Shown: in pieces, positions 21,607 to 35,812 of the stretch
Layout of the letters: every line of letters begins with the position of its first letter
How positions within the stretch are numbered: the stretch's first letter is position 1
DNA from: Myxococcota bacterium
GTDB lineage: Bacteria; Myxococcota; Kuafuiibacteriia; Kuafuiibacteriales; Kuafuiibacteriaceae
Assembly (NCBI GenBank): GCA_039024635.1
Contig: JBCCQA010000005.1
Coordinates: forward strand, 103,729 to 167,728
DNA: 64,000 nt
Reading direction: 5' to 3'
Program-made: the position numbers and the translations under genes
The notes under the pieces: model-generated
What the model was told of the DNA's origin: nothing
Databases searched by the model: none
The model's input: the letters and a program-made list of their open reading frames with translations, nothing else

Positions 21607-21801
21607 TCATGGCACTGCATCCCAATCAGGCTCGAAGCGATCAGGCTGACCGCACGACTCCCTTGTGCAATGGACCATGACGCCCCAGCCCTTGCCCCAA
21701 AGGCCGTAGCAGCCTTGAAGCTCGGCGCCGCAGTGCTGGCATAGGCCTTCGACGGGAGTCCGCGGGATGTCTTCGGTGATGGGCTGGCTCGACTCACTCA
21801 T
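21607..21801 (-). CDS. Small zinc-ribbon protein
   Basis: About 64 aa with CQHCG...CTRESCG. Its start overlaps the MazG-like stop. Confidence 0.3.
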   Translation of the reverse strand: MSESSQPITEDIPRTPVEGLCQHCGAELQGCYGLWGKGWGVMVHCTRESCGQPDRFEPDWDAVP

Positions 21802-22319
21802 GCCAACCTCGCGCCGGCTGGCGGGTTCAGACGGTTGGGGTTGCATGTCGGGCAGGCGACAGGCTGGACGATGCCCATGCGGACGGCGAAGTCGCTCCCC
21901 GGGGGGAGTTTGGCCCAGTGCGACCAAGGCTCCCGGTCGGTGCTGTTGGCGACCCATCCTTCGCCGGCGCACTCTCGGCAGGGCTTGGGACCGGGAACTT
22001 CGCGCCCATCAGCGGCCAGCGGGGCAAGAGCGAGCGTTCGGTCTCCCTCCTCGGCAAGTCGAACGCACATGGCCATGACCTGGACGAGCTCGACGCGGGC
22101 TTCGTCGTAGGACCCTCTGCCTTCGCGAAGCTGCAGGATGGCTTTCGTGAGCTCTCCCACTTCCTCGTGGAGGGCGTGCAGGGTTGGATTGTCGCCCTCC
22201 GGGAAGAGCTTTCGCGCGCGCTGGACTTCCTCTTCGACTTCCAAGGCGAGGCGGTCCCAGTGGATCGTGACGGCGTTGATCACCGCTTCACCGCCTTCAC
22301 GGACGACGGAGGCGCCCAC
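21798..22319 (-). CDS. MazG-like nucleotide pyrophosphohydrolase domain protein with C-terminal Cys cluster
   Basis: HEEVGELTKAILQ motif (typical EExGE of the MazG/all-alpha NTP-PPase fold) and C-terminal CRECAGEG...CPTC. Confidence 0.45.
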   Translation of the reverse strand: MGASVVREGGEAVINAVTIHWDRLALEVEEEVQRARKLFPEGDNPTLHALHEEVGELTKAILQLREGRGSYDEARVELVQVMAMCVRLAEEGDRTLALAPLAADGREVPGPKPCRECAGEGWVANSTDREPWSHWAKLPPGSDFAVRMGIVQPVACPTCNPNRLNPPAGARLA

Positions 22320-22483
22320 AAATCGACAGGACCACCGTTCGCCTTAGCCAGAGCCAGGTCGCCGTTCGACGTCGTGTGGAGGACGAAGAACCTATCGCCA
22401 GGACGCGCCAAGCCCAGCGTGTCGGCCATGATGTGACCCGTGCGCGTGATCTCGACCAGGTCCCCAGGCTCGTAGTCGCTCAC
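22280..22483 (-). CDS. Small hypothetical protein
   Basis: 67 aa ORF coupled to the upstream gene. Confidence 0.25.
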   Translation of the reverse strand: MSDYEPGDLVEITRTGHIMADTLGLARPGDRFFVLHTTSNGDLALAKANGGPVDLWAPPSSVKAVKR

Positions 22484-22917
22484 AGGCCCACCGCCTCAAG
22501 CATGTCGGCGGCCTCAAGGTAGACCGCCCAAGGAGCCCGCATCTTGTTGGGGTCAAGGTAGTCACTAATGTGACGGTAGACGCGCCCCATCGCCTTGCGC
22601 TGCTCAACCGATGCGGCAGCTACTGCGTGGCCAAAGTCGCCCGTACGCAGGCCGTCCAATCGGTAGGCCCACCCATGCTCTTCCGAGCAAGAGAACACGG
22701 TGTGCTGCAACGGGGTGTCGAGCGATTTCGCCATGACAGAGCCTGCAAGACAAACTGCGCATCGCTTAAGGTGATCGTGCCAAGTGTGCCACTTGTTCAT
22801 GCGCATGATATAGTTGGGGTCTGCCTCGCAAAGCTTGGCGTCCTTGACGGCCAGCCGGAGGAGTCGGCTGTCGGGCATGAGGTTCAGCTCTGCGTTCGTG
22901 TAGTGTCGGGTCTTCAT
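22480..22917 (-). CDS. Hypothetical protein immediately downstream of integrase
   Basis: Start refined to MKTRHYT, whose ATG overlaps the integrase stop. The upstream part of the long ORF is low-complexity. Confidence 0.35.
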   Translation of the reverse strand: MKTRHYTNAELNLMPDSRLLRLAVKDAKLCEADPNYIMRMNKWHTWHDHLKRCAVCLAGSVMAKSLDTPLQHTVFSCSEEHGWAYRLDGLRTGDFGHAVAAASVEQRKAMGRVYRHISDYLDPNKMRAPWAVYLEAADMLEAVGL

Positions 22918-24059
22918 GGGAACAGCTCCAGTTGTTCGGGTGAGCGGCCGAAGGGCAGGCGCATCCGCCGCATCTGGGCGCACTGCCAATCCCAGCCGGG
23001 GTGAGAGTAGATATCGGCGGACGAACGGGCGGACTTCGCGTGGGTCCAAAGTCGCGCCGCTTCCGAGATCCCGACCTCCGCCGCCGCCGTGATGAACGAG
23101 TGCCGGATATCGTGAAGCCGCATGGGCGGCAGACCGACCAGGGCTAGATGCCGCTGAAAGCGAGCCTGCACGTAGCTCTGAGACCGGGGCCGGTGGTCGC
23201 GCTTCGCCCGCTGGGGCGAAGGGAAGAGAAAGTCCGTCTTGGTCGGGGCCCGACCGTGCGCTCGCCTCCAACCCCGCTGGGCCCAATGCTCAAGCAGACC
23301 GGCCAGGGCAGGGTGCACCGGGATTCGACGGGTCGCCCCAGTCTTGGTCTCGCCCACGGCCTTCGTGTGGGAGTTCCAGGTCCGCCGGACGTGGAGCGTT
23401 CCAAGGGGCCTGGTCGACCGTGACCAGTCTTTGAACTGGAGCCCGAGGCCCTCACCCATGCGGACGCCGGCCGCGATGAGGACGGCATAAAAGGTCCTCG
23501 AGACCGCATCGACCGACTCGCTCAGGGCGAGCCGGCTTAGCCTCGGCAGCGTCTCGACGTGGGGCCTGAACTCAGGCCGAAGCTTCTTGGTCGGCCAAGC
23601 AGAGCGGGGCAGGTGGGCGAAGGGGTCTTCGGTCAGGTAGCCGAGCTCGAGGACCCGGCGGACCACACGGCGCGCCGCCCAGCGCCAGCCGAGGATCCGG
23701 CTCGGGCTGTACTTCTCGCCGTCGGCCCGTGTCCTCGAGCACGCCCAGCGGGCCCAGGCAGATAGGATAGGGGTGTCCAGCTGGTCGACGGGCAGGCCCC
23801 CGACCGCGGCCGTGAAGAAGGAGACCGCGGAACGAAATTCGTCCGCGGAGCGGTATCCAGCCCGCCGATCTTCGGCGAGCATCTCCTCGACGAGCGCCCC
23901 AAACGTGGGCGCCTCGGTGCCGGGAGCGATGAGGTGAGCTTTCAGATTTGGATGAAGAACCATCTCGGCAGGATGGCTTGCCCTTTTTGGAGCCTGCACG
24001 GCCCGTTCGGGCGCCTCGAGAGACAAAGCCCCGTCTGTGATCGCGATCGCCGAGCTCAC
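22914..24059 (-). CDS. int: Tyrosine site-specific integrase
   Basis: C-terminal catalytic signature (RLHDIRHSFITAAAEVG...ADIYSHP with the terminal Tyr) and an N-terminal SAM-like domain. It sits at the prophage boundary. Confidence 0.85.
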   Translation of the reverse strand: MSSAIAITDGALSLEAPERAVQAPKRASHPAEMVLHPNLKAHLIAPGTEAPTFGALVEEMLAEDRRAGYRSADEFRSAVSFFTAAVGGLPVDQLDTPILSAWARWACSRTRADGEKYSPSRILGWRWAARRVVRRVLELGYLTEDPFAHLPRSAWPTKKLRPEFRPHVETLPRLSRLALSESVDAVSRTFYAVLIAAGVRMGEGLGLQFKDWSRSTRPLGTLHVRRTWNSHTKAVGETKTGATRRIPVHPALAGLLEHWAQRGWRRAHGRAPTKTDFLFPSPQRAKRDHRPRSQSYVQARFQRHLALVGLPPMRLHDIRHSFITAAAEVGISEAARLWTHAKSARSSADIYSHPGWDWQCAQMRRMRLPFGRSPEQLELFP

Positions 24060-24169: not shown

Positions 24170-24757
24170 ATGAATCGGCGCCGGGCTCGACCGACTCCAT
24201 CCGAGATGCCCACTCATCCCGGCCGGGATCCGGCCGAGCATTCGATTGTCACGATGCCCGGGACGCAGGTGCGACCTCGGCCTACTCTGCTGCGGTGGAG
24301 CCTCTTGGCCCTCCCGCTCCTTCTAGGCGGGACATTGATTTGGTTCATGAGCGAGGGAGACGGTGTCCAGCCTCCGAGCGCCAACCCTCGGCCCCCCGCG
24401 CTGAACCCTGAAGCCTTGAAGCTTGCGCCGTCGCCATCCCTCCCTCGACCCGCCCCGCCCAAACGCCGCGGCCGGGGAGTAGTCGGAAAGAAGGCGGCTC
24501 CGCTCTCGCCCAAGCCCCCCAAGGCTCGAGTGCCGAGTGCCGAGTCTAAGGCGCAGGCCGCCGTCCGTCGGGCCATCGCCGCCCCCGACGACGCCGAGAA
24601 ATTCGAGGCGGGACTGGCGGCGCTTCGCGCCTGGGCCAGGACCCTGCCCCCCGACGAGGCTACGAAGCTGGAGGCTGCGGTTCGCCGGGCAGAATTCACT
24701 TGGTCGGCCTCCGACCTTCAGCGCGCCCTTCACTCGGTCGCGGCCACCAAGCCGTAG
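24170..24757 (+). CDS. Hypothetical membrane-anchored Pro/Ala-rich protein
   Basis: TM segment (LLALPLLLGGTLIWF) then a PAPP-rich linker and a helical C-terminus. Confidence 0.35.
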   Translation: MNRRRARPTPSEMPTHPGRDPAEHSIVTMPGTQVRPRPTLLRWSLLALPLLLGGTLIWFMSEGDGVQPPSANPRPPALNPEALKLAPSPSLPRPAPPKRRGRGVVGKKAAPLSPKPPKARVPSAESKAQAAVRRAIAAPDDAEKFEAGLAALRAWARTLPPDEATKLEAAVRRAEFTWSASDLQRALHSVAATKP

Positions 24758-25893
24758 GCCCCAACGCCGAGGGCCGCGCCCAACACCCAGCTGGGCCAGG
24801 GCACCGAACGACGGCGGTCGATGGTGAAGGCGCCCACGCTCCAGCCTAGCCCTGCCCCCAATAGGCCCGCGCCCACGGCGGCCAAGGGCGGCGTGCCCAC
24901 GAGTCGTTCCCCCGTCGCGCAGTCTGGTCCTTCGAAACACACTAGCGCCTGGCCATCGGCTCGGGCCGCCGCCCATGCAAAGACCGTCGCGCTGGCGCCC
25001 ACCGCCGCGATCCCGGTCCAGAAGGTGGTCCGACGTAGGTCCCGCGACAGCCTGGTCTCCGAGCGCCGTAGCGATGCCTCGACTCGCGTCGTTCGACCCG
25101 GCGCCACCTTAACCTCGGCCGAGAAAGGCAGGTGCTGATGAGCCTCGATTTTCAGCTCTCGTCGGCCAGAGCGAACGTCGACGATCTTCGTTTCCAGCTC
25201 CGCTCGCCCCAAGAGTCTGCCGTCGAGGCGAACGCTGGCCCCTTCGACCGATGAGCGAAGATCGATGCCGCCGAAAGGTTGGTGATGCTGATGGCGCTTC
25301 AATGCCCGGAGCAGATTGACGCTCAGCGCGGACTCGAGGAAAGTCTGCAGACCACGTACGTCCCTCAGTTCGTCGGAGCGAGTCGAGGCTACGATGGCGC
25401 GCTCGAAGACTTCCGTTTCCACGCGGTCTTTCCAGCCCGGTTTTCGGTCGGCCTCGTGGAAGCTCTCCAGGGCTAGGTCGGTGCTGACGAGCTGGAGAAG
25501 GACGCGATCCCCACGCTCGGGTGCCGTCAGTACGCCCACCACCAAGAGTAGTCGAGGGGTCTCGCGACCCGCGGCGCGGACCCTCATGGAGTGGGCCCGA
25601 TAGGGCGCATGCGTGCCGTCCGGCCGCCGGAGACGCTCACGCTGGTAGTCAGGTCGGGCCTTTCGAACGACGCAGCTCAGCTTGCGTGCGCACTGATCCA
25701 CGACCGCAGTGTCCATGGGCTCCACCCGCAGATCGGTTGAGGCGTCGAAGGCCTCGTCCAGTCCGCGGATGATCTCGGAAAGACCGAGCCGACCTGAGGC
25801 CCCGGTTGGGGTCGTGAAGGCCACTGGGAGGGGGCGCCGATCTCCGGCTTCCAGCACGACCGCCGCGGCCACGGCCAGCAAGACCGGCGTCAT
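24730..25893 (-). CDS. Membrane protein (signal peptide, periplasmic domain, C-terminal TM helices); last gene of the flotillin operon
   Basis: N-terminal hydrophobic signal, C-terminal helices (FWTGIAAVGASATVFAWAA; LLGAGLGWSVGAF; WVLGAALGVGAYGLVAA). Its ATG overlaps the giant ATPase stop by 4 nt. Confidence 0.5.
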   Translation of the reverse strand: MTPVLLAVAAAVVLEAGDRRPLPVAFTTPTGASGRLGLSEIIRGLDEAFDASTDLRVEPMDTAVVDQCARKLSCVVRKARPDYQRERLRRPDGTHAPYRAHSMRVRAAGRETPRLLLVVGVLTAPERGDRVLLQLVSTDLALESFHEADRKPGWKDRVETEVFERAIVASTRSDELRDVRGLQTFLESALSVNLLRALKRHQHHQPFGGIDLRSSVEGASVRLDGRLLGRAELETKIVDVRSGRRELKIEAHQHLPFSAEVKVAPGRTTRVEASLRRSETRLSRDLRRTTFWTGIAAVGASATVFAWAAARADGQALVCFEGPDCATGERLVGTPPLAAVGAGLLGAGLGWSVGAFTIDRRRSVPWPSWVLGAALGVGAYGLVAATE

Positions 25894-28800
25894 GGCTTCT
25901 TGGCCTCGGCACGGGATATCGCGTTCCAGCGCAAGAGCTCTATGAGCTCCCTCAAAGGGGTGCCCAGGGCTCTTGCCTGCTCGAGGTGTTCGACGCTGCT
26001 CTGTGCCAAGGGCAGGATGGCCTTTTCCAGGGTCGCGAGGTGGGTGCGCAGGACGACCTCCAGATCTCCATTGGCTCCGTCCGCCGTTCGATCCGAGGAT
26101 TCGGCCTCCAGCGCTGCTCGGATCCCTTCCAGCTGAGCGCCCAGGCCACTCAAGCTCGAGGTGACGCGTACAACCGGGTCCTCGTCGTCGCCGCCCTGAA
26201 GCGTGCTACGACGAAAATCCGCTTTGATCTGATTCCAACGAGCGGCCTGGCTCTCGCTCATGCGCCCCCGCATCTCCGCCAGCTTGAGCAAGTTCTGCTC
26301 CGCGCCCGTAGTCAGAGTCTGCGACTCGGATTCGTAGTGGTCTGTGATCAAGACCTCGATCTCTTCGTCGGTCATGGCTGCGACCACCTTCTCGGCCAGC
26401 CTGTTCATGTTTCGGTAGGAGCCCTGAAGTTTGAAGGGCGGCTCGGTTCGGTAGCGATCGTCCTGCGAAGCAGACTCGATATACTGAAGATTGACTGCGA
26501 GAAGAACAGACTGAATTCGTCGCAGATGCCGCAGGACAACCAAGATCTCTTCGATCTCGACTTGGGCATGGCTCCGTTCGAACTCCGTGCTCGAGACCTC
26601 TTCCCCTGCCGACATACGGATGAAGGCCCGCATGTCCTTCATCGAGCGCGCCACCACCGGGCTCAGGCTCGGGTTGGAGGTGATGCTATTTTCGATGTAG
26701 CTCGAAGCGAAGGCCTCGTCTCGTCCGGTAAGGACGTCACCGAGATTGTAGGTGTCGGCCCGGTTGGCTAGCATGTCAGGGATCTGAAACTTCTCGCCCG
26801 ACTCCGTGTATGGATTGCCGGCCATGACGACGGCGAACTTCTTTCCGCGAAGGTCATAGGCCTTGGAGCGGCCTCGCCACACGCCTTCGATGCGTCGCTG
26901 GCCGTCGCAGAGCGAGATGAACTTCTGCAGGAACTCGGGGTTAGTGTGCTGGATGTCGTCGACGTAGAGCATGACGTTGTCCGACATCTCGAAGGCGAAG
27001 TTGACCCGTTCTACCTCTTGTCGGGCGGTAGCGTTGGAGGCGTCCTCGGGGTCGAGAGAACTCACTTGGTGGCCCAAGGCAGGGCCGTTGATCTTCATGA
27101 AGACCATGCCCAAGCGATTGGCCACGTATTCGACCAGGGTGGTCTTGCCGTAGCCAGGCGGCGAGACCAAGAGTAGCAGGCCCATCAGGTCGGTTCGCTT
27201 GGCGTCCCCCGCCGCGCCCAGCTGCTTGGCCAGATTGTCTCCGATGATGGGCAGGTAAACCTCGTCGATAAGACGGTTACGGACAAAGGAAGACAGAATA
27301 CGGGGCTGAAGAGCGTCCAATCTGAGCGCTCGACGCTCTCGCTCGAGCAGCTCGTGGCGAAGGCTTCGGTAGGCTCGATAGTCCGGGACACGCGCCTCCA
27401 TGAAGGTGTGGAGGCGCTGACCGAATTCGTCCAGCCGCAGCTCCAGGCTCCGGTCCTGGATACGAGGGTGTTGTCCGAGGAGGCCCTCCACCCGGGCCGT
27501 CGTCGGGGCCGTACTCTCCTGACGATCGACTCGAGGGGCCAGCAGGACGGCCGCCGCCTCTAGTCGGAGAGGATGGGCGTCCGGGTCGTGTCGCTCCACG
27601 AAAGCATCGATCCAGGCCAAGGCCAGCCCCAGTCGTTCCCCCAAGCGCTCGATGGACGACAGGTCCTCCTCGAAAGCGCGTCGACCGCCGTCCAGGTCCA
27701 GATGCTCCTCCAGGCGACGAACCAGCTCGACCGCCTCCCGGTTCACGACGAAGCGTGGATGGGCGGCGATCATCTCTTCGACCAGGTAGCGGCCGGCGTC
27801 GAGGACGGGGTCGCCGGGGAGTCGGAGTTCATGGGCGTCGACGAAACGCCGCAGGGCGAGCTCCAGGTCCTCGGCCAAGCGACGCTCGGAGATGCTCCGA
27901 TTTCCCCCCAGGCTGCTTCGAAGCCGTCCGAGTGAACTCGCTCTTCGATGAAGGCGCTCACGCTCCGCCGTCTCGCCGTGGGCCCACCACAGAGCGGCCA
28001 AGCCCCGCGCACCGGGTGGGAAGCGAAGCAGGCCCGCACCTTGGTGGAGGGCGACGAGCTGCTCCAGAATCCGCGCCGCGTCCAGGTCGTGCAGACCGCG
28101 CTCGTAGCCTTCTTCGTAGCTCTGGGCCGTCCGTTCTCGGATGATCTTCAACAGCCCTTCCCAGCCTCCGGCCGAGACCAGGGCTTCGAGGCCGCTCGCA
28201 CCTTCAGCCTCGGCCTCGAACAGAACCCGGGCCGCCAAGTACTCGCTTCGATAGACCTCTCGATCCTCGGAAACGAGAGGCTCGTCCCAAAAGCCGCGCG
28301 TCCGCTCGAAGGCGTTGTCGTCCACCTTCTCATGAAAGGCGGTCCCGGTGACGTGGAAGTACATGTCGCCGTCCTTGGGGACCATGGTGAGCTCGAAGGG
28401 GCGGCGGTTGACCGTAAAACGATGACGACCGAGCCGGATGAGGTCCTCTCCATTCTCGAAGAGCTCGCCCTTGTCGTGAAGGGTCCGAAGCGCCTCTCGG
28501 CGCAGAGCCTTCGCCTTGGCCTCGAGGTCGTCGGCTCGTACGCCTTCCTCCAGCTTTCGAAGGGACTCTACGAGCTGGCGAAGCTTGGCGATCATTGGAT
28601 CCGAGGCGAAGTAGGCGTTGAGTGCATCTTCCTCGTCGAAGGACTGAGCTCGGCGGCGCATCCCGTCCAGGATCCGCTCCGCGGCTGAAGCAAGGTTGCC
28701 CGCCTTGCGCTGACGAGCATCCAAGAGCTCTTGTTTCTTGCCGTTGAAGGCCTCGTAGATCTCTTCCCGACGGGCGGCCAAGTCTTCCAGGAACACGTCG

Positions 28801-31010
28801 AACTCACCGAAACGAGTCTCCAGCTCCTCCATTTGGATAAGCACTCGGCTCAGCTGCGAGTCGCAGGCCTCGGGGGTGTCGGCCAGAGCGAGGGCGCTGG
28901 ATACGGCCTGCCCGAGAAGCTTGAACTGGGCCGAGAATTCGGCCCGTCCTTCGGAGCTGGCCAGCTCCTTCCTTCGGTTGCTGGAGATGGCGCGGGCACG
29001 GTTGAGCGCCGACAGGACCTCCGAAATCCGTTCCAAGACTTGGGTGCGCTCCTGCGAGTCCTCGATTTCGAGGCCCGCCACCACCTCCGAGAGAACGTTG
29101 AGTCCTTCCCCGAGCCGCTCCAGTCGCGCCTTGGCCGGTTGGAGCGCGAGCACCTTTTCGGCGGCCTCGACGTCGTGGATCAACTCGTCGATCTGCCGCA
29201 GCAGTGGCGCCATCGCCTGCTGCTGGAGGAGAAAGCGCACGCAGCCTCGACTGACGTCGTCCAGTCTTTGGCCCAGCTCCTCTTGGAGCCGAGAGAGTCG
29301 ATCCCGGTCGAGGTAGCGAACTTCCTCCAGGGAGATCAGATGACCCTGCTGTCGGCGGAGGGCGTCCATCGCCTCCAAGAAGGCCGACACCTCCCGCCAA
29401 TCTTGGGGTCGGAGGTCTTTGACGAGGGCGGCTTGCTCGGACGCTGCCTCGCTCAGGACCTCCTTTGCCCGGGCGCTCAGCGTTTGGACCTTCTCGAACT
29501 CGTCGATGACCAGCTCGGCATTTTGGAGCATCTTGGCCAGGATCCCTGCCAGGTCGCCGACCTCCTCCCGGTCCAGCCAGTAGTAGGCATCACGCGCGCG
29601 CTCGATGGCCTTGATCAGGTCCTCGAAGGTCTCGCGCCGGGGCTCGGCCGCAAGGGCCAAACGAACGATGGACAGGGCTTCCGAGATGCCGCGGACGAGC
29701 TCGTCGTTGCCGACCTTAGCCAGGAAGCCCTCCCGGCTGGGTTGCCGAGCTGCGTACTCGTCCGAGCTGAAGGGAGTATGCCAAATCTGAAGGGGATGAA
29801 CCCGCGTTGCTTCGGGCTGGGCCTTGAGGACGATCATCCGGCCATCGTCGAAAATGCTGAAGCCGTTCACCTCCAGTGGCGTTGCTACCTCCTTGCGGAT
29901 CAGGTTGTAGGGAAGGAGTAGGTAGCGGCCGTCTTTTTGGTGGTGAAAGACGTAGAGCACGTCTTCTCCATTGGGCGCCCTCAGCTTCCGAACGAAGATG
30001 AGGTCCTCGGTGACGGTGTCGAAGGTCTTCGCTTCACCATTCTCGAGCAGATAGCCGCCCGGGAAGATGATGCCATGGTCTTCTGGCAGCTGGACGCAGG
30101 CCTGGCCGATGGCGTCCACCCTATGGACCGTCTTGGTGCGGGTGTTGAAGACCAGGTAGCGGCGCTGTCGCTCCTGATACGGTAGGACCTCCAAGAGGAT
30201 CAGAGCACCCACCTTGGCCCAGCGGATCTCAGCGTCGTCTAGCGACTGTCGTGGGTCTTCGACTGGCTCGCTATAGATGCCGCGACCGTCTTCGGTGTTG
30301 TCTTCGATCTTGACCGTGAGATCGCCACCCACCGTCTCGATGAAGACTTCGTCGAGGATGGAGACGTGAGGATGTCGCCCCGCGACCTGATCATCCCTCG
30401 TCGTCCTCCGCCACTCAAAGTCGTGGCGCGACGGAAAGACGTGCTCCCTCTCGCCTCGGTTGTCGACATAGCGAAGCTCCTCTCCTGCCAGTCCCCATCG
30501 GAAGGCTTTGACGTCCTGCAAGGTGCCCCCGGTCTGGAAGACGGCCAGGATGCGACCCGCCTCGAGCTGACGCAGCTGCAGTAGCCGCGTGTCCTTGTAG
30601 TACTGGAAGAGCTCGCCAAACTCCCGACGGAAGCTGGGTGCGTCGAGCAAGCCTGGAAGCGAATCCGAGGCTGCCGGATGCAGCTCCGTTCCTTCGGACT
30701 CCAGTCCATGGAGTACGAAGACGTCCTCCACCGACACTTCGGTCTTGAGGCCCAGGAACACGTTGAAGCCGAAGAGCAGTTTGCCCTGCACCTGAAGTAT
30801 GTCGCGAGGAACGCAGTTGTGTTCAGTCCGCACTCGAGCGTGACCCACTAGCTCCAGTCGAGTGCTCCCGAACTCGGCCTGGCGGGCCTCGTTGAGGGCG
30901 TCCGTTCGTCGCTGCAGCTCCTGGGCCTGCTCGGTCAGACGGCTCCGAATGACCTCGTAGCTCCCCCCGTCGAGGCTGGGGTCGACGGCGGCCTCTTCCG
31001 CCGCGCTCAC
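25890..31010 (-). CDS. Giant (1706 aa) coiled-coil protein with a single AAA_5-type (MoxR/McrB/midasin-like) ATPase domain; function unknown
   Basis: Walker A LLLLVSPPGYGKTTLVEYV, Walker B MLYVDDIQ, then PEFLQKFISLCDGQRRIEG...FAVVMAGNP...ANRADTYNL, which is the AAA_5 arrangement. It has an N-terminal ~450 aa beta-rich domain and long helical Glu/Arg/Leu-rich stretches. Its start codon directly abuts the flotillin stop. Confidence 0.75.
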   Translation of the reverse strand: MSAAEEAAVDPSLDGGSYEVIRSRLTEQAQELQRRTDALNEARQAEFGSTRLELVGHARVRTEHNCVPRDILQVQGKLLFGFNVFLGLKTEVSVEDVFVLHGLESEGTELHPAASDSLPGLLDAPSFRREFGELFQYYKDTRLLQLRQLEAGRILAVFQTGGTLQDVKAFRWGLAGEELRYVDNRGEREHVFPSRHDFEWRRTTRDDQVAGRHPHVSILDEVFIETVGGDLTVKIEDNTEDGRGIYSEPVEDPRQSLDDAEIRWAKVGALILLEVLPYQERQRRYLVFNTRTKTVHRVDAIGQACVQLPEDHGIIFPGGYLLENGEAKTFDTVTEDLIFVRKLRAPNGEDVLYVFHHQKDGRYLLLPYNLIRKEVATPLEVNGFSIFDDGRMIVLKAQPEATRVHPLQIWHTPFSSDEYAARQPSREGFLAKVGNDELVRGISEALSIVRLALAAEPRRETFEDLIKAIERARDAYYWLDREEVGDLAGILAKMLQNAELVIDEFEKVQTLSARAKEVLSEAASEQAALVKDLRPQDWREVSAFLEAMDALRRQQGHLISLEEVRYLDRDRLSRLQEELGQRLDDVSRGCVRFLLQQQAMAPLLRQIDELIHDVEAAEKVLALQPAKARLERLGEGLNVLSEVVAGLEIEDSQERTQVLERISEVLSALNRARAISSNRRKELASSEGRAEFSAQFKLLGQAVSSALALADTPEACDSQLSRVLIQMEELETRFGEFDVFLEDLAARREEIYEAFNGKKQELLDARQRKAGNLASAAERILDGMRRRAQSFDEEDALNAYFASDPMIAKLRQLVESLRKLEEGVRADDLEAKAKALRREALRTLHDKGELFENGEDLIRLGRHRFTVNRRPFELTMVPKDGDMYFHVTGTAFHEKVDDNAFERTRGFWDEPLVSEDREVYRSEYLAARVLFEAEAEGASGLEALVSAGGWEGLLKIIRERTAQSYEEGYERGLHDLDAARILEQLVALHQGAGLLRFPPGARGLAALWWAHGETAERERLHRRASSLGRLRSSLGGNRSISERRLAEDLELALRRFVDAHELRLPGDPVLDAGRYLVEEMIAAHPRFVVNREAVELVRRLEEHLDLDGGRRAFEEDLSSIERLGERLGLALAWIDAFVERHDPDAHPLRLEAAAVLLAPRVDRQESTAPTTARVEGLLGQHPRIQDRSLELRLDEFGQRLHTFMEARVPDYRAYRSLRHELLERERRALRLDALQPRILSSFVRNRLIDEVYLPIIGDNLAKQLGAAGDAKRTDLMGLLLLVSPPGYGKTTLVEYVANRLGMVFMKINGPALGHQVSSLDPEDASNATARQEVERVNFAFEMSDNVMLYVDDIQHTNPEFLQKFISLCDGQRRIEGVWRGRSKAYDLRGKKFAVVMAGNPYTESGEKFQIPDMLANRADTYNLGDVLTGRDEAFASSYIENSITSNPSLSPVVARSMKDMRAFIRMSAGEEVSSTEFERSHAQVEIEEILVVLRHLRRIQSVLLAVNLQYIESASQDDRYRTEPPFKLQGSYRNMNRLAEKVVAAMTDEEIEVLITDHYESESQTLTTGAEQNLLKLAEMRGRMSESQAARWNQIKADFRRSTLQGGDDEDPVVRVTSSLSGLGAQLEGIRAALEAESSDRTADGANGDLEVVLRTHLATLEKAILPLAQSSVEHLEQARALGTPLRELIELLRWNAISRAEAKKP

Positions 31011-32990
31011 TCAGTTGGCCCCGTCGCCGTGGCCGGCGCCGATCCCCAGGGCCTGAGCCTCGGCCATCAGCTTCCGGAGCTTTTCCTTCATGGGCTCGTC
31101 GGCGGAGCCCATGAGTTGGGTCAAGAATGCGCTGATGGTGAGAGCCTGGACGTTGGAGGCGCCACCGCCATTGAGGGCCGTCAGCACATCCTTGGGCAGG
31201 TTCCCGTCTCCTTCCAGATAGCCGTCCATCAATTTACGGATCGTCTCGCTGTTGTCCAAGGTTCCATCGACGGACTGACCGACCGCGATGGCGTTTATGA
31301 ACTTGTCGAAGAAGCGGCCATCTCCGCCCACGATGTTGATTTTGGCCTGCTCGAAGGCGTCCTTGAGGATCTCGGCTCGGTCTCGCGCGATGACCTGCTC
31401 GGTCTCCATGCGCTTGAAGCGAATGTCTCGGTCCGTCTCCAATCGAAGCCGGAACTCCTCGTGGTCCTTGGCTGCGCCCCGCAGGGCCTCCATTGCCTCC
31501 GCCTTCTGGCGAAGACCGGCCGCTTCGGCCTCCATTTTGAGTTGGACGACCTGGGCATTGGCCTGGCCTTCCTTCTCGATGGCGAGGGCCTCGGACTCCC
31601 GCACCCGAACTCTAGCAAGACCTTCGGCCGCTTCTTCGGCCTGCGTCCCCTCCGCGAGGCGAATCTTGGCCTTGGCCTGTCGGTCGGCGGCCTCCAGCTC
31701 GGCATCGGCCAGGGTCAGCTGCTCCCGGGCGCTGAACTTGGCCACCTCCTGCTTGGCTTCGGCGGCCTTGATCTCCTTGACCAGGCCCTCCTCGGCTTCG
31801 GCTTCGGCTGCAGTTACCGCCACGTCCTTGTTTCGATTGGCCTCCGAGGTCGCCCGGAGATCCTTGATGTTCTCCTCCTCCTCGGCCACCGTTCGCTCCA
31901 CTGCGATCCTGCTCCGGACCACGTCGGCGATGCTCTTCTTCTCGACCTCGACCTCTTTGTCCTTGTTGATGGTCTGAAGCTCGACCTCTCGCTCTCGAGA
32001 GATGGCCTCCAGGGCCCGGTCTTTCTCTACCCGCTCGTTCTCGATGGCGATGGCTCGCTCTCGGGCCTTCTCGGCGATCTCGACCTGGCGAGCCTTGTCT
32101 TGTTCGGCCACCTCTACGTCCTCTTCGGCCTTGATCCGGGCTCGCCGGGCTCGCTGGAATTGCTCGGCTTGCTCGACCTCCGTGGTCGCCTTCTCTCGGG
32201 CCACCATCACGTCGATTTCTCGCTGCTGCTTCGCCTTAGCGTCGGCCTCTTGCCGATTCAGCTCCAGCAGTGCTTCTTCCGCTTCGACATTCTTCTTCTT
32301 GATCGCCTTCCGTTCGTCTTGGCGGAAGTTGTTGGTCTGGATGTTCTGGGCCGTCGTCAGTTCCGTGATCTTACGGATTCCCTGGGCATCCAGAATGTTC
32401 TCGGGGTCCAAAGACTCGATGGGCGTCTGCTCGAGGAAGTCGATGGCTACATCGTCGAGGATGTAGCCGTTGAGGTCTTCTTCGTTTCCGATGTGGGCCC
32501 GAATGGCGTCGCGGAAGCCATCTCGATTCGTGTACAGCTCGACGAAGTCTAGGCCCTTTCCGACGGTCTTTACCGCCTCCGAGAACTTGGCCATGAAGAG
32601 CTCTTCGATCGTCGCTTGATCCGAGGCTCGCTTGCAGCCGACCTGTTGGGCGACCTTCAGCACCGACTCTTCCTTCCTGTTCACCTTCACGAAGAAGGTG
32701 ACTTTGATGTCGGCCCGGATGTTGTCGTGGCAGATCAGGCCCTCTTTTCCCCGACGGTCGACCTCGATGGTCTTGACCGAGATGTCCATCTCCTCAGCCC
32801 GGTGGATTATGGGAAGGACGAGGCCTCCCGTAAAGGTCACGTCGGGTCGCTTGGTCACCTTGTTGATGATGAGAGCACGACCCTGCTCCACCTTTCGGTA
32901 GAACTTGGCGACCAAGAGCGCGAAGCCAAAGACGACGACGACAAGAGCGCCGAGTCCGCTGACGAAGAGAATGAGTTTGTCGATGTCCAT
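31011..32990 (-). CDS. Flotillin-family SPFH/band-7 protein (YqiK/FloT-like)
   Basis: N-terminal TM helix (LILFVSGLGALVVVVFGFALLVAKF), SPFH core, then a long Glu/Ala/Lys/Arg-rich coiled coil (EA repeats) and a Gly-rich C-terminus. Size is 659 aa. Confidence 0.85.
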   Translation of the reverse strand: MDIDKLILFVSGLGALVVVVFGFALLVAKFYRKVEQGRALIINKVTKRPDVTFTGGLVLPIIHRAEEMDISVKTIEVDRRGKEGLICHDNIRADIKVTFFVKVNRKEESVLKVAQQVGCKRASDQATIEELFMAKFSEAVKTVGKGLDFVELYTNRDGFRDAIRAHIGNEEDLNGYILDDVAIDFLEQTPIESLDPENILDAQGIRKITELTTAQNIQTNNFRQDERKAIKKKNVEAEEALLELNRQEADAKAKQQREIDVMVAREKATTEVEQAEQFQRARRARIKAEEDVEVAEQDKARQVEIAEKARERAIAIENERVEKDRALEAISREREVELQTINKDKEVEVEKKSIADVVRSRIAVERTVAEEEENIKDLRATSEANRNKDVAVTAAEAEAEEGLVKEIKAAEAKQEVAKFSAREQLTLADAELEAADRQAKAKIRLAEGTQAEEAAEGLARVRVRESEALAIEKEGQANAQVVQLKMEAEAAGLRQKAEAMEALRGAAKDHEEFRLRLETDRDIRFKRMETEQVIARDRAEILKDAFEQAKINIVGGDGRFFDKFINAIAVGQSVDGTLDNSETIRKLMDGYLEGDGNLPKDVLTALNGGGASNVQALTISAFLTQLMGSADEPMKEKLRKLMAEAQALGIGAGHGDGAN

Positions 32991-33002
32991 GGGTCCTCCG
33001 GT

Positions 33003-33640
33003 TCAGGTGCTCGAAGTCTCGAGCGCGTGCTTGGCTTCGACCTGAAAGGCGTTTGCCTCTGGGTCGTAGGAGATGATCAGGGCGTCGTCGCCGCGGCTCA
33101 GCGCCCCGCGTCGACTGCGAATCTGGACGACGTCCCCGTCCGTCCCGTCGATCACGACGCCCACTCCGCTTTCTTGGTCGACCTGTCCGCTTCGGACGCG
33201 GCACATCTTCCCGACCAGTGAGGCATTCTTCTCGGCTAGGACGGTCTTGAAGAAGGGCTCGAGCGGCACGGCAGCGAGGGCGGTCGCCGGGAGCGCGGTG
33301 ATCAGCGCCGCCAGTCCGATGACCAGTTCGCCGGCGACGCCACCGACCCATCCTTCGAACCAGTCGACGTACAGATAGCAGGCCATCCAGGCCACCAAGA
33401 CCGCCACGCTGAGCGTCACCGAGAGTGGGACGCGACGCATGCCCAGCCAGCTCAACAGGGCGATGCCCGTCCCTCCGTCCGCCTCGACGTCCAGGTCGAA
33501 GTCAAAGCTGTCGAGGTCGGCCGCCCCGGCGATGACTAGGCCCCAGTAGAGCAGCGCAAAAACGAGCAGCGTGGTGAACACTACGGTGGGAAAACTGCTC
33601 ACGTTGTCGATGAACGCTGCCACGAAGCTCCTTCGGACAC
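33003..33640 (-). CDS. NfeD-family membrane protein (YqiJ/YuaF-like); start approximate (GTG)
   Basis: Several TM helices (VVFTTLLVFALLYWGLVIAG; IALLSWLG; LSVAVLVAWMACYLYV; LVIGLAALITALPATALAAV), then a C-terminal soluble beta-rich domain (GKMCRVRSGQ...VVIDGTDGDVVQIRSRRG...ISYDPEANAFQV). It lies 12 nt upstream of flotillin. The N-terminal ~290 residues of the long ORF are Arg/Pro junk. Confidence 0.6.
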
Positions 33641-33739
33641 GATAAGCACGCTTTGCCCTCCGTCCAGTCCCTGCGCGAAAGAAGCCATGGCACGGAGGTC
33701 CTTCGACTTCAATCCGGTGGAACGTGTTAGCCTGGCGGA

Positions 33740-35782
33740 GTGGCGAGCTTGGTGTCGGTCGGGGCAGATCCAGTGGTCGCGCTCGCGGCGGCCGAGGCCG
33801 AGCTGCCTCACCGCGTGCATCCCACGGGATGGGGCGCCTGCCGTGTGCAGGATGCCTTGCTGATCGTTCATCGAAATGGCGTCGACGGACCCATCGAGTC
33901 ATGGCTGCCTTGCTCGGCCCCGGTCGTGGCTGCGCCTTCGGGGGCCTTCGGCATTCCAGCCCGGACTGCCCAACGGCTCGGCCTTCGAGGGCCCGCCCGC
34001 TCAGCTCGAGAGCGAGCCGCTGCCGTGGCCGAACTGCTCCCGTCTTTCGAGCTCCCCTTGACCCGAGGTCTGGCGGCGGGAGAGGGCGGGGCCCTGCTCG
34101 ACGAGGCCCTGAGGAAGTCCATGAGCCCACGGGTCCACACCGCTGCTTTCGAGCTGTCGGTCGAGATCTTGGGGCCTGACGCGATGGGGTCCTTGGCAGA
34201 GCGGTGGGTGGCCAAGGCAGATGGCCCCCCGGAATCCTTTGAAGCGGCCTGGTCCATTCTCCGCCGTCCAGGCGGCCTGGGCGCGCTGGCCGAGCTGGCG
34301 GCCCGAGGTCCGAGCCCCGAGGTCCGGCTCCGCGCGGCACGAATCCTGGCCGAGAACCAGCCTCGGGCCGCGGCCCGCGCGTACTTGGAGCCCCTCCTCG
34401 CCCCTCCGGTCGACCCCCTACTGCAGGCCGGTCTCCGCCGACTGCTGGAGGAGCTAGGCGAAGAGGAGGCCGAGGCACCTGCGAGGGACGAGCTTGGTCG
34501 ACTCTTGCGGGGTCTACCGAGCACGCGTTCTGGGCTCTTGGACTTTCTCGACGAAGAGGAGGCTTCGGTAGAGGACAAAGCGAAGAGCCTGCGAGCTTTA
34601 GCCCTCGGTCCCCGCCGGGCTGAGCTCCTGCCCTGGGTCCGCGGCGGCCTTCTGCGACCGGATGGGCTTGGCTGGACCGCCGTCGAAATTGCGGAAATGT
34701 GGGCGGACGCTGAGCTCCTAGAGGCCGGTTTGCGCCACTCCGAGCTCAGCCATGCCGTTCGCGCCCTGGATGGACTTGGCCGGGTGGCGAGCTGGGCCCG
34801 CTGGTCGGCCATGCTGCCTGGCCTCATGGCAGGACCGCTCGCTTCGACGGCGCTTGCCTGGGCGGTTCGTCGCGCACCCGACGCCAAGCAGCCCTTGGGC
34901 TACGTCCGGACCGAAGCCTTGGGCCGAGCGGCGGTGGAGGGGGCTCGAACCCTGGGTCTGGCCGGGGTGCAGGTGCTTGCCCAGCTTCTCCAGAGTTCGT
35001 CACCGTCCGTTCAAAGGGCGGCGGCGGAGGCGCTTCGGGGGATGCCGAAGCTGGCGGCTGAAGATCTCGTCGAGATCCTGGACGGCGCGCCCACCGAGCC
35101 CAGGATCTCGGTCGCCGAACCCGAACTGCCGAGCCTGGCTCGCTTTCAGCACGGGCTCAGGCTGGCCGTCGAATCCGGCATCCGCGGGCGGCGGGTGCTG
35201 AGGCGGATGGCCTCGACCCAGCGGGTTCCGGTGGAGATTCGTGTGCAGGCCCTACGTCACCTTGCGCGGGACCTTCATCCCATGACCCGGGCGCTCTTGG
35301 AGTCGACCTTGCTCCGCGGGTCTGGACCCATGGCCGAGGCTGCCTTGGGCAGCGTCATGCAGCGAGAGGATCTCCCCATGGAGACGGTGCGTCGCTTCGT
35401 GGAGACGAGTCGAGAGCATGGCCTCCGTGCCAGGGCCATTCGCTTCGCCGCCGCCCGCTGGCCGAAAACTGAGGTCCGAGAACTGCTGGAGGGCTGGCTC
35501 TTGGATTCCAGCCCCCTGGTGCGGAGGGCTGCTTTGGACGGCCTGTTCCGATCGCTCCGACTGGTCTCGGAAGAAGGGCTGGAGGCCCGCCTCGTGAATC
35601 TGATGGAGGTCCACACGGAGCTCGAGGTTCGCCGCTCTGCCGCCCTCGCCCTCGGGAGCTTCGGGGGACAGGAGGCCCTTGCGGCCCTTCAGCGGGCGGT
35701 CGGGTCCGACGTCGGGCCCGAGGCCATGCGCTCTCTCAGGCGTTTGCGAGCCTTCGAGGGCGGGAGCGGGCCGAACTTGTGA
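33740..35782 (+). CDS. HEAT/PBS-lyase-type repeat protein
   Basis: 680 aa alpha-helical Leu/Ala/Arg-rich protein with repeated ...VRxxAAxALG... units (for example VRRSAALALGSFGGQEALAAL). GTG start. It is divergent from the NfeD-flotillin operon. Confidence 0.6.
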   Translation: MASLVSVGADPVVALAAAEAELPHRVHPTGWGACRVQDALLIVHRNGVDGPIESWLPCSAPVVAAPSGAFGIPARTAQRLGLRGPARSARERAAAVAELLPSFELPLTRGLAAGEGGALLDEALRKSMSPRVHTAAFELSVEILGPDAMGSLAERWVAKADGPPESFEAAWSILRRPGGLGALAELAARGPSPEVRLRAARILAENQPRAAARAYLEPLLAPPVDPLLQAGLRRLLEELGEEEAEAPARDELGRLLRGLPSTRSGLLDFLDEEEASVEDKAKSLRALALGPRRAELLPWVRGGLLRPDGLGWTAVEIAEMWADAELLEAGLRHSELSHAVRALDGLGRVASWARWSAMLPGLMAGPLASTALAWAVRRAPDAKQPLGYVRTEALGRAAVEGARTLGLAGVQVLAQLLQSSSPSVQRAAAEALRGMPKLAAEDLVEILDGAPTEPRISVAEPELPSLARFQHGLRLAVESGIRGRRVLRRMASTQRVPVEIRVQALRHLARDLHPMTRALLESTLLRGSGPMAEAALGSVMQREDLPMETVRRFVETSREHGLRARAIRFAAARWPKTEVRELLEGWLLDSSPLVRRAALDGLFRSLRLVSEEGLEARLVNLMEVHTELEVRRSAALALGSFGGQEALAALQRAVGSDVGPEAMRSLRRLRAFEGGSGPNL

Positions 35783-35812
35783 GGCCGGCACCGACTGTGT
35801 ACCCGTGGAGAC

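What the first reader, a model, noticed from the sequence alone, without database searches (positions are those of the whole stretch)
24730..33640. Four-gene NfeD - flotillin - giant AAA_5 ATPase - membrane protein operon beside the prophage integrase
Four minus-strand genes are packed with almost no intergenic space. NfeD stop to flotillin start is 12 nt, the ATPase start is contiguous with the flotillin stop, and the last gene overlaps the ATPase stop by 4 nt. NfeD plus SPFH/flotillin pairs are well known (yqiJK, yuaF-floT). I do not know any characterised system in which that pair is co-transcribed with a 1706-aa protein built from a beta-rich N-domain, very long coiled coils and a single midasin/McrB/MoxR-style AAA_5 ATPase module (GYGKTT ... 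MLYVDDIQ ... VVMAGNP), followed by a periplasm-facing membrane protein. The architecture suggests an ATP-driven, membrane-microdomain-anchored machine. Its location right beside a prophage attachment region is also typical of defence islands, so a role in phage defence, envelope stress or membrane remodelling is worth testing. This is my top candidate for a new system in the window.
Basis: partly seen in the sequence, partly recalled or inferred. Interest (0 to 1): 0.85.

Follow-up and report, generated by a model that had tools for sequence, protein, structure and literature searches.

The report
Flotillin-linked giant MoxR-like ATPase operon
The window holds a real, very widely conserved three-gene membrane module: a YqiJ/NfeD-like protein, a flotillin and a 1706-aa soluble AAA+ ATPase that databases mislabel "DNA repair ATPase". 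Comparative genomics has already linked it to the phage-shock (PspA) envelope-stress network, no experiment in the searchable literature has tested it, and the data do not support a defence-island system.

Summary
Four minus-strand genes are packed as described: a 12-nt gap, a 0-nt gap and a 4-nt ATGA overlap. Two corrections apply. The first gene starts at GTG 33623, not 33640. The fourth gene (PEGA protein) is lineage-specific.

The core is three genes:
- a 3-TM YqiJ/YuaF-type NfeD-like protein;
- a TM + SPFH/Band_7 + coiled-coil flotillin;

This order is kept in essentially every one of about 88 loci examined, across seven phyla. At least 598 matches turned up in a collection holding one genome per species.

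Ravi et al. 2024 (mSystems, PMC11237479) already described this operon. They reported it alone and fused to CesT/Tir-PspA, and I reproduced both forms. I found no experimental study.

The two nearest relatives keep the upstream context but have no integrase downstream. PADLOC finds no significant match to a known defence protein, and phage records carry no homologue. The defence-island reading is therefore not supported.

Most likely function (inferred): an ATP-driven remodeller or chaperone of flotillin/PspA-type assemblies on the cytoplasmic face of the membrane. This is a new member of a known, uncharacterised kind, of moderate interest.

The parts
33003..33623 (-). YqiJ/YuaF-type NfeD-like membrane protein, 206 aa. 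It has three TM helices and a C-terminal soluble domain that looks like an OB fold.
   Evidence: Pfam YqiJ_N PF21001 at 1.8e-5, 25.4 bits against a cut-off of 23. Three hydrophobic peaks at aa 14-32, 68-89 and 101-119. The start is GTG 33623 with GAAGGAG upstream. Homologues lie directly upstream of the flotillin gene in 71 of 83 loci by tblastn, and in 3 more by ORF inspection.
31011..32990 (-). Flotillin-family SPFH protein, 659 aa. It has an N-terminal TM helix, a Band_7 domain, a long charged coiled-coil region and a conserved C-terminal region.
   Evidence: Band_7 PF01145 at 2.8e-11 on aa 33-216 when aa 1-230 are scanned alone. TM helix at aa 6-24. Sources name the homologues 'flotillin family protein' or 'YqiK'. 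The SPFH part is 53-71% identical in all related loci.
25890..31010 (-). Giant soluble AAA+ ATPase, 1706 aa. This is the DUF3686/DUF7902 family, named 'DNA repair ATPase' in NCBI annotation.
   Evidence: Pfam DUF3686 at 2e-196 (aa 31-477), DUF7902 at 1.4e-23 (aa 598-682), AAA at 9.9e-8 and AAA_5 at 3.5e-7. No TM segment. All 120 listed homologues carry PF12458, and 6663 clusters match at E<=1e-10.
29778..30854 (-). Beta-propeller domain of the ATPase (aa about 53-411), preceded by a long N-terminal helix (aa 17-47).
   Evidence: AlphaFold2 model m4a15ed270429 has mean pLDDT 87 and is all-beta over aa 53-411. Foldseek matches WD40-type propellers such as Elp1 and DCAF1, and also paraoxonase and prolyl oligopeptidase propellers.
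26661..27203 (-). MoxR-type AAA+ module (aa about 1270-1450): Walker A GYGKT, Walker B VDD, sensor-1 N1399 and the probable arginine finger R1417.
24730..25893 (-). PEGA-domain protein, 387 aa. It is a lineage-specific accessory gene, probably translationally coupled to the ATPase gene through the ATGA overlap, and not part of the conserved core.
   Evidence: PEGA PF08308 at 2e-8. A 39%-identical orthologue with the same 4-nt overlap occurs only in the nearest relative's contig. It is absent from 83 other loci.
33624..33739 (.). A 116-nt divergent intergenic region between the operon and the HEAT-repeat gene. It is the probable promoter region (inferred only).
   Evidence: Gene coordinates. 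The same divergent arrangement is kept in L084 and L085. The consensus promoter scan was uninformative.

Best explanation
The locus is a member of the conserved YqiJ/YuaF (NfeD-like) - flotillin - beta-propeller/MoxR-AAA+ module, which belongs to the bacterial phage-shock/envelope-stress network.

Shown here:
- The three genes are co-inherited in a fixed order across seven phyla.
- The flotillin has one N-terminal TM helix. The charge distribution around that helix places the bulk of the protein in the cytoplasm.
- The YqiJ-like protein has three TM helices plus a soluble C-terminal domain.
- The ATPase has no TM segment. It is built from an N-terminal helix, a beta-propeller, long helical bundles and one MoxR-type AAA+ module with intact, invariant nucleotide-binding and hydrolysis motifs.
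- In Gammaproteobacteria and Bacteroidota the trio is fused to a CesT/Tir-chaperone + PspA(IM30) pair.

Inferred mechanism:
- The flotillin, nucleated or anchored by the YqiJ-like protein, forms an oligomeric dome or microdomain on the inner face of the cytoplasmic membrane.
- The ATPase oligomerises through its AAA+ module. It reaches that assembly with its coiled-coil arms and propellers.
- It then uses ATP hydrolysis to assemble, remodel or recycle flotillin and/or PspA (ESCRT-III-like) polymers, or a client held by them, during membrane stress.

The PEGA protein here, and the rhomboid, PLD and rhodanese proteins elsewhere, are lineage-specific envelope accessories.
For: Domain calls:
- YqiJ_N, DUF3686, DUF7902, AAA/AAA_5 and PEGA.
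- Band_7 on the flotillin N-terminal part.

Structure models:
- N-terminal 1180 aa, pLDDT 87: beta-propeller plus long helices.
- Walker A K/T, Walker B DD, sensor-1 N and R1417 are invariant.

Synteny:
- At least 598 matches in a collection holding one genome per species.
- The flotillin gene lies directly upstream of the ATPase gene in 85 of the 88 loci analysed. Of the other three, two have no upstream DNA and one carries a 6.3-kb insertion. The YqiJ-like gene lies upstream of that.
- The best flotillin homologues sit on the same contigs as the best ATPase homologues, with at least 23 shared contig lengths.

Link to the phage-shock system:
- A PspA/IM30 gene lies upstream of the trio in pQBR103 (about 3.8 kb away, five genes between) and directly upstream in a Hymenobacter plasmid.
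- It also lies about 100 nt upstream of the YqiJ-like gene in the 15 chromosomal gammaproteobacterial loci among 16 loci of one PspA-like cluster, whose representative hits PspA_IM30 at 1.2e-49. A DUF2170/YjfI gene (1.9e-50) lies beside it in 15 of those loci.
- Other linked genes are membrane-related: rhomboid, PLDc_2, rhodanese, an ion channel and OmpA-type proteins.

Literature:
- Ravi et al. 2024 describe the same operon and propose chaperone-like assembly of sub-membrane complexes.
- An SPFH protein links PspA to the membrane in B. subtilis (PMC8581546, listed).
- A 2025 review notes that bacteria appear to lack a Vps4-like ATPase for PspA, and that the role of Band-7 partners is undetermined.

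Topology: no TM segment in the ATPase, one in the flotillin, three in the YqiJ-like protein.
Against: - No experiment exists for any member, so every mechanistic step is inferred from context and fold.
- This window has no PspA gene near the operon. tblastn with the Hymenobacter and E. coli PspA sequences found nothing in the window.
- In Myxococcota, Actinomycetota and Deinococcota the trio stands alone. PspA therefore cannot be an obligate operon partner.
- MoxR-type ATPases normally act with a VWA-domain partner, and none is present.
- Walker B reads DD rather than the usual DE. This could mean slow, switch-like hydrolysis rather than a processive remodeller.
- No physical contact between the ATPase and the flotillin could be tested with these tools.
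Confidence: 0.5

Rival explanations
1. A MoxR-style maturase or chaperone for a separate membrane client. The ATPase would use its propeller and helical arms to insert a cofactor into, or assemble, some membrane protein complex. The flotillin/YqiJ pair would serve only as the platform that concentrates the client, rather than being the substrate itself.
For: The closest structural relatives, NorQ and CbbQ, are MoxR ATPases. From established knowledge, these act as maturation or activation chaperones for nitric-oxide reductase and Rubisco. [quoted passage not shown] Variable envelope genes ride with the trio: PEGA, OmpA/TSP3, rhomboid and an ion channel.
Against: No conserved client gene and no VWA adaptor accompanies the trio in about 88 loci. 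The only universally co-inherited partners are the flotillin and the YqiJ-like protein.
Confidence: 0.22
2. An anti-phage defence or abortive-infection system that senses membrane perturbation during infection.
For: The operon lies 670 nt from a prophage integrase in this genome. Members occur on megaplasmids such as pQBR103 and on Deinococcus, Hymenobacter and Streptomyces plasmids. A single-HKD PLD-like protein, which could be a nuclease, follows the ATPase in some Gammaproteobacteria. From established knowledge, the B. subtilis yuaF-floT genes and psp genes respond to phage and envelope stress.
Against: For the four proteins, PADLOC gives only a borderline hit of the ATPase's P-loop to TRIP13 (E = 0.003, 15 bits, 35 residues). 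No homologue occurs in 50,697 phage records. The nearest relatives keep the upstream chromosomal context but have no integrase or phage genes downstream. Sequence conservation is very high, at 45-64% over about 1650 aa across phyla, and only 946 clusters at 50% identity cover the N-terminal domain. Rapidly diversifying defence genes do not look like this. The neighbouring PADLOC PD-T4-6 hits are generic Ser/Thr-kinase homology.
Confidence: 0.1
3. A membrane coat, vesiculation or cytoskeleton-like scaffold. The beta-propeller followed by a long helical region would act structurally, as clathrin, IFT and nucleoporin proteins do, to shape or bud the membrane together with flotillin. The AAA+ module would control assembly.
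For: Foldseek gives weak whole-chain matches of the N-terminal 1180 aa to clathrin heavy chain, IFT-A and a nucleoporin model (probabilities 0.63-1.0 with very low TM-scores). From established knowledge, eukaryotic flotillins take part in endocytosis.
Against: The matches are driven by the propeller alone. The helical part models as long helices or bundles, not an alpha-solenoid. TM-scores are 0.07-0.13.
Confidence: 0.08
4. A DNA repair ATPase, as the database name says.
For: Only the Pfam description 'ATPase involved in DNA repair' and the NCBI product name, generic AAA+ similarity to RuvB and MCM, and a LexA-family regulator upstream in Hymenobacter.
Against: No nucleic-acid-binding domain was found. 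The fold is MoxR-type AAA+, not the SMC/SbcC/RecN ABC type. All conserved partners are membrane proteins. No paper in the library mentions DUF3686 or PF12458. From my own knowledge, the name probably derives from spurious coiled-coil similarity to SbcC/RecN-type COGs.
Confidence: 0.03

Closest known systems
CesT/Tir-PspA + YqiJ/YuaF + Band-7/flotillin + beta-propeller AAA+ operon and its 'abbreviated' form (Ravi et al. 2024, mSystems, PMC11237479)
   Same: The same three core proteins with the same architectures. The abbreviated form, which lacks PspA, is what the window carries. The published example, from Dokdonia, has the same context as the Hymenobacter locus found here.
   Different: The window lacks the CesT/Tir-PspA pair and adds a PEGA-domain gene coupled to the ATPase stop codon. 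The paper did not classify the AAA+ module as MoxR-type, and its main text and the one supplementary file held as text do not name DUF3686.
E. coli yqiJK and B. subtilis yuaF-floT (NfeD-like + flotillin pairs)
   Same: An NfeD/YqiJ-type TM protein is encoded immediately upstream of a TM + SPFH + coiled-coil flotillin (Pfam YqiJ_N and Band_7). JGI names the homologues YqiK.
   Different: From established knowledge of those genomes, those pairs have no adjacent giant ATPase. In this subfamily the ATPase gene directly follows in 85 of the 88 loci analysed.
MoxR AAA+ ATPases of the CbbQ/GvpN/NorQ group (NorQ-NorD, CbbQ-CbbO)
   Different: NorQ and CbbQ are about 260-aa stand-alone ATPases that work with a VWA-domain partner. 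Here the module sits at residue 1270 of a 1706-aa protein that has a propeller and helical arms. There is no VWA partner, and Walker B reads DD.
HflK/C-FtsH (an SPFH cage enclosing an AAA+ protease)
   Same: An SPFH oligomer genetically and functionally paired with an AAA+ machine at the cytoplasmic membrane. This is an analogy drawn from established knowledge.
   Different: FtsH is a membrane-embedded classical-clade AAA protease, and the HflK/C domains face the periplasm. Here the ATPase is soluble, is MoxR-type and has no protease domain, and the flotillin is predicted to face the cytoplasm.
Vps4-ESCRT-III (archaea and eukaryotes)
   Same: An AAA+ ATPase genetically coupled, in some lineages, to an ESCRT-III-superfamily polymer (PspA). 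A possible role in turnover of the membrane-bound polymer.
   Different: Vps4 is a classical-clade AAA with an MIT domain. No MIT domain was found here, the clade is different, and the PspA linkage is confined to some lineages.

Membership tests
YqiJ/YuaF - Band-7/flotillin - beta-propeller AAA+ operon (Ravi et al. 2024) | A 3-TM protein of YqiJ/YuaF type | tested here: met
   YqiJ_N at 1.8e-5, above its cut-off. Three hydrophobic helices.
YqiJ/YuaF - Band-7/flotillin - beta-propeller AAA+ operon (Ravi et al. 2024) | [quoted passage not shown] | tested here: met
   Band_7 at 2.8e-11. TM helix at aa 6-24. Homologues are named flotillin or YqiK. No Pfam model hit the C-terminal 429 aa.
YqiJ/YuaF - Band-7/flotillin - beta-propeller AAA+ operon (Ravi et al. 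2024) | [quoted passage not shown] | tested here: met
YqiJ/YuaF - Band-7/flotillin - beta-propeller AAA+ operon (Ravi et al. 2024) | A CesT/Tir-PspA pair in the same operon (full-length form only) | tested here: not met
   Absent upstream in the window, where a divergent HEAT gene lies instead. Present in gammaproteobacterial and Bacteroidota relatives. The window therefore carries the 'abbreviated' form.
MoxR-type (AAA_5) AAA+ ATPases | AAA+ core with Walker A, Walker B, sensor 1 and an arginine finger | tested here: met
   GYGKT, VDD, N1399 and R1417 are invariant. Walker B reads DD, not DE.
MoxR-type (AAA_5) AAA+ ATPases | Closest fold and profile match to MoxR-family members | tested here: met
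MoxR-type (AAA_5) AAA+ ATPases | A pre-sensor-1 beta-hairpin and a helix-2 insert | tested here: inconclusive
   The model shows a two-strand hairpin (aa about 1373-1386) between helix 3 and strand 4. The helix-2 region is a loop, not a clear hairpin.
MoxR-type (AAA_5) AAA+ ATPases | A VWA-domain partner protein encoded nearby | tested here: not met
   No VWA domain in the four proteins. No recurrent gene family was found downstream or upstream, and the recurrent clusters that were scanned are not VWA.
Known anti-phage defence systems (PADLOC 2.0) | Significant match of the component proteins to a defence-system model | tested here: not met
   Only a weak hit to the TRIP13 P-loop (0.003, 15 bits) for the ATPase, and nothing for the other three.
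Known anti-phage defence systems (PADLOC 2.0) | Recurrent location in defence islands or mobile elements | tested here: not met
   The nearest relatives have no integrase or phage genes downstream. No phage carries the ATPase. The conserved neighbours are Psp or membrane genes. A genome-wide enrichment test was not possible.
SMC/SbcC/RecN-type 'DNA repair ATPase' | An ABC-type head split by a coiled coil, and DNA binding | tested here: not met
   A single AAA+ module at aa 1270-1450 of MoxR fold. No DNA-binding domain was detected.
NfeD-SPFH gene pairs | An NfeD C-terminal OB-fold domain (PF01957) | tested here: inconclusive
   PF01957 was not reported at E<=0.1. The C-terminal 60 aa are conserved among homologues. 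Their structure was not predicted.

The most novel reading that the evidence does not exclude
The DUF3686 ATPase could be the missing bacterial ATP-driven remodeller of sub-membrane scaffolds. It would be a MoxR-derived functional analogue of Vps4. Its propeller would grip flotillin domes and/or PspA (ESCRT-III-like) polymers, and it would disassemble or recycle them. Such a machine would explain how bacteria, which appear to lack Vps4, turn over these assemblies.
Probability: 0.25. Interest if true: 0.8.

Novelty: new member of a known kind. Interest (0 to 1): 0.45.

Why it matters
Bacterial flotillins and PspA/IM30 polymers are central to membrane organisation and repair. What drives their assembly dynamics is still open. 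A 2025 review states that a Vps4-like ATPase appears absent in bacteria and that the role of Band-7 partners of PspA is undetermined.

This trio supplies a concrete candidate that is widespread and extremely conserved. It occurs in tractable organisms: Myxococcus, Streptomyces, Pseudomonas (including plasmid pQBR103) and Proteus mirabilis. The open question is therefore directly testable.

There is also a practical point. Thousands of database entries carry the unsupported name 'DNA repair ATPase', and the partner flotillin is usually left without a domain call. Annotation pipelines therefore hide the association.

Tried and rejected
1. A whole-protein Pfam scan of the flotillin gave no hit. 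PDB sequence searches gave only spurious S6-kinase matches. Scanning aa 1-230 alone resolved this.
2. tblastn with the Hymenobacter and E. coli PspA sequences found no PspA in the other loci. All-against-all clustering of upstream ORFs followed by Pfam did find PspA/DUF2170 in the gammaproteobacterial loci.
3. I searched for a conserved fourth gene downstream of the ATPase. None is shared beyond lineage level. The lineage-specific ones are rhomboid, PLDc_2, rhodanese and PEGA.
4. The sigma-70 promoter and terminator scan of the operon was uninformative.
5. PADLOC hits of the neighbouring kinases to PD-T4-6 were rejected as generic Pkinase homology.
6. Literature searches for DUF3686, PF12458, 'flotillin' + 'DNA repair ATPase', YqiK + YqiJ + ATPase, and flotillin + PspA + MoxR returned nothing relevant. 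The P. aeruginosa SPFH paper does not mention an ATPase partner.
7. My first C-terminal flotillin query for tblastn was out of frame and was discarded.
8. The clathrin/IFT/nucleoporin-like whole-chain Foldseek matches were considered and down-weighted, because TM-scores are only 0.07-0.13.
Full report
**1. The observation**

The region holds four consecutive minus-strand ORFs:
- 24730..25893, 387 aa
- 25890..31010, 1706 aa
- 31011..32990, 659 aa
- an ORF ending at 33003

Reading the DNA confirms each junction:
- TGA followed by 12 nt containing GGAGG, then the flotillin ATG at 32990.
- The flotillin TGA is followed directly by the ATPase GTG at 31010.
- An ATGA overlap joins the ATPase gene and the fourth gene.

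The long upstream ORF (to 34478) is not the gene. The in-frame start that matches homologues is GTG 33623, with GAAGGAG just upstream. This gives a 206-aa protein.

**2. What the four proteins are**

*Gene 1* hits Pfam YqiJ_N (1.8e-5, above its cut-off). It has three hydrophobic helices followed by a soluble C-terminal domain.

*Gene 2* gave no Pfam or PDB sequence hit as a whole protein. Residues 1-230 alone hit Band_7/SPFH at 2.8e-11. Sources name its homologues 'flotillin family protein' or 'YqiK'. It has one N-terminal TM helix with MDIDK before it and KFYRKVEQGR after it. By the positive-inside rule (inference), the bulk of the protein lies in the cytoplasm.

*Gene 3* is a defined Pfam architecture:
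- DUF3686, 'ATPase involved in DNA repair' (2e-196, aa 31-477)
- DUF7902 (aa 598-682)
- a weak AAA/AAA_5 match (aa 1279-1404)

It has no TM segment.

*Gene 4* carries a PEGA domain and only marginal hydrophobic segments.

**3. Structure of the ATPase**

I made two AlphaFold2 models with 66-sequence alignments.

Residues 1-1180 (pLDDT 87) show:
- a long helix, aa 17-47
- an all-beta domain, aa 53-411
- long helices of 45-58 residues, aa 417-850
- a small beta domain, aa 857-895
- a helical domain, aa 921-1157

Foldseek matches the beta domain to WD40-type and other beta-propellers. Whole-chain matches to clathrin, IFT-A and a nucleoporin are weak.

- Cdc6, 12.8; McrB, 12.5; midasin, 12.1.

K1289/T1290, D1351/D1352, N1399 and R1417 are invariant among 12 diverse homologues. 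An active ATPase is therefore likely, although Walker B reads DD rather than DE.

**4. Conservation and synteny**

The ATPase family is large but compact:
- 6663 clusters at 90% identity match at E<=1e-10, and all 120 listed carry PF12458.
- The N-terminal 700 aa match only 946 clusters at 50% identity in 1.84 billion representatives, 285 of them at E<=1e-30.

The 80 loci fetched come from these groups:
- Myxococcota
- Actinomycetota: Streptomyces, Nonomuraea, Actinoplanes and others
- Gammaproteobacteria: Pseudomonas, Xenorhabdus, Pseudoalteromonas, Methylomonas
- Acidobacteriota
- Planctomycetota

Plasmid records add Bacteroidota and Deinococcota, as well as pQBR103 and Proteus mirabilis chromosomes.

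tblastn and ORF analysis of 88 loci give the following:
- The flotillin gene lies directly upstream of the ATPase gene in 85. Gaps range from -4 to about 460 nt.
- Two loci have no upstream DNA. One (L015) has a 6.3-kb insertion of envelope-protein genes.
- The YqiJ-like gene lies upstream of the flotillin gene in 71 of 83 loci by tblastn. ORF inspection finds it in the three apparent exceptions. The remaining nine are cut by contig ends.
- Identities to the window proteins are 45-56% for the ATPase in these loci (up to 64% for the closest homologues), 53-71% for the SPFH part, and 23-39% for the YqiJ-like protein.
- The best flotillin homologues lie on the same contigs as the best ATPase homologues.

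The PEGA gene is found in none of the 83 loci. It occurs only in the nearest relative's contig, where it has the same 4-nt overlap and is 39% identical. The next relative lacks it.

**5. Accessory genes and context**

- In the two nearest relatives, the divergent HEAT-repeat gene and the Ser/Thr-kinase/WD40 gene upstream are syntenic with the window. Similarity stops within the PEGA gene, at about 25350 in L085 and at the ATPase stop in L084. Neither relative has an integrase there.
- In the window, a phage-type integrase (22914..24059) and then exonuclease, terminase and major-head homologues follow. The prophage adjacency is real but specific to this genome.
- In pQBR103 a PspA/IM30 gene lies about 3.8 kb upstream of the YqiJ-like gene, with five genes between. 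In a Hymenobacter plasmid it lies immediately upstream.
- Clustering of upstream ORFs showed a PspA_IM30 protein (1.2e-49) in 16 loci. In the 15 chromosomal gammaproteobacterial loci it lies about 100 nt before the YqiJ-like gene. The sixteenth is pQBR103. A DUF2170/YjfI protein (1.9e-50) accompanies it in 15 of them.
- Downstream in those loci are a rhomboid protease (4-nt overlap with the ATPase stop) and a PLDc_2 protein.
- Polyangiaceae have a rhodanese in the same position. Kofleriaceae have an ion-channel gene upstream.
- In Deinococcus and Streptomyces the trio stands alone.

**6. Prior knowledge**

No paper in the library mentions DUF3686 or PF12458, or 'flotillin' together with 'DNA repair ATPase'.

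Ravi et al. 2024 (PMC11237479; preprint 2020) describe exactly this system. It comprises CesT/Tir-PspA plus three proteins:
[quoted passage not shown] - a 3-TM YqiJ/YuaF protein.

A PLD hydrolase is present in some Proteobacteria. [quoted passage not shown] Their example, from Dokdonia, has the same context as the Hymenobacter locus found here.

I found no experimental study. A 2025 review states that the roles of Band-7 partners of PspA are undetermined, and that a Vps4-like ATPase appears absent in bacteria. In B. subtilis an SPFH protein links PspA to the membrane (PMC8581546, listed).

**7. Interpretation**

*Shown:* a three-gene, co-inherited, membrane-associated module with a soluble MoxR-type AAA+ protein. 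It is recurrently fused to Psp components and to other envelope proteins.

*Inferred:* the flotillin/YqiJ assembly sits on the cytoplasmic face of the membrane. The ATPase oligomerises through its AAA+ module. It uses its propeller-tipped helical arms to assemble, remodel or recycle flotillin and/or PspA polymers, or a client held there.

Rivals:
- A MoxR-like maturase for an unidentified membrane client. This is plausible, but there is no VWA partner and no conserved client gene.
- Phage defence. PADLOC gives no significant match for the four proteins, no phage record carries a homologue, relatives have a non-mobile context, and conservation is very high.
- A coat-like scaffold. The structural evidence is weak.
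- DNA repair. Only the database name supports it.

**8. Verdict**

- The claims of novelty and of a defence-island role are not supported.
- This is a new member (the abbreviated form, with a lineage-specific PEGA accessory gene) of a known, computationally described but experimentally untouched system.
- Interest is moderate. The module is a strong, testable candidate for the unknown ATP-dependent regulator of bacterial flotillin/PspA assemblies, and it is systematically mis-annotated.

Noticed in passing
window 9553..24059: A prophage-like block lies to the left of the operon. It holds an integrase (22914..24059), an exonuclease-like ORF (15684..16637), a terminase large subunit (13106..14452) and a major head protein (9553..10374), all on the minus strand. 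The two nearest relatives have no counterpart downstream of the operon. The only tRNA in the window (tRNA-Asp, 45848..45929) is not adjacent. Attachment sites were not mapped.
   Followed up: partly
window 33740..39160: A divergent HEAT-repeat gene (33740..35782) and a Ser/Thr kinase-WD40 gene (35813..39160) are syntenic with the operon in both nearest relatives (L084, L085). Ser/Thr kinase genes lie within 5 kb upstream in 9 of 79 loci, including a Planctomycetota and a Nonomuraea locus. This could be chance in kinase-rich genomes or a regulatory link. The kinases hit PADLOC PD-T4-6 models through generic kinase homology.
   Followed up: partly
L015 1578..7941: In one Myxococcales MAG the flotillin and ATPase genes are separated by 6.3 kb. 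The insert holds three same-strand genes for envelope or surface proteins: OmpA with thrombospondin-3 repeats, DUF11 and Laminin_G_3. This echoes the surface-type PEGA gene in the window.
   Followed up: partly
L041 13319..13894; L020 13295..13648; L061 13128..13817: Different lineages attach different small genes to the ATPase stop codon, often with a 4-nt overlap. Some Gammaproteobacteria have a rhomboid protease followed by a single-HKD PLD-like protein. Polyangiaceae have a rhodanese, which recalls PspE of the E. coli psp operon. The window's lineage has PEGA.
   Followed up: partly
L014 2852..3460 and five other Kofleriaceae/Labilithrix loci: A small Ion_trans_2 (K+-channel-like) membrane protein is encoded just upstream of the YqiJ-like gene in six loci.
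   Followed up: no
window 31011..32990 and homologues P0121-P0240: This flotillin subfamily escapes whole-protein Pfam scanning. The precomputed Pfam field is empty for most of the 120 closest homologues. The domain is found only when the charged coiled-coil region is removed. Automated context analyses will therefore under-count the flotillin-ATPase association.
   Followed up: yes
window 25890..31010 (aa 1351-1352): Walker B is invariantly Asp-Asp (VDDIQH) rather than Asp-Glu across the family. This is unusual for MoxR-type ATPases and may indicate slow or regulated hydrolysis.
   Followed up: no
L087 (pQBR103, NC_009444.1 85-98 kb): On the Pseudomonas megaplasmid pQBR103 the trio lies directly downstream of a full yjf-type cluster: PspA/IM30, rhomboid, DUF2491, DUF350, DUF1190 and a glutathionylspermidine-synthase-like gene. 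An MvaT/MvaU-type regulator gene follows the trio.
   Followed up: no
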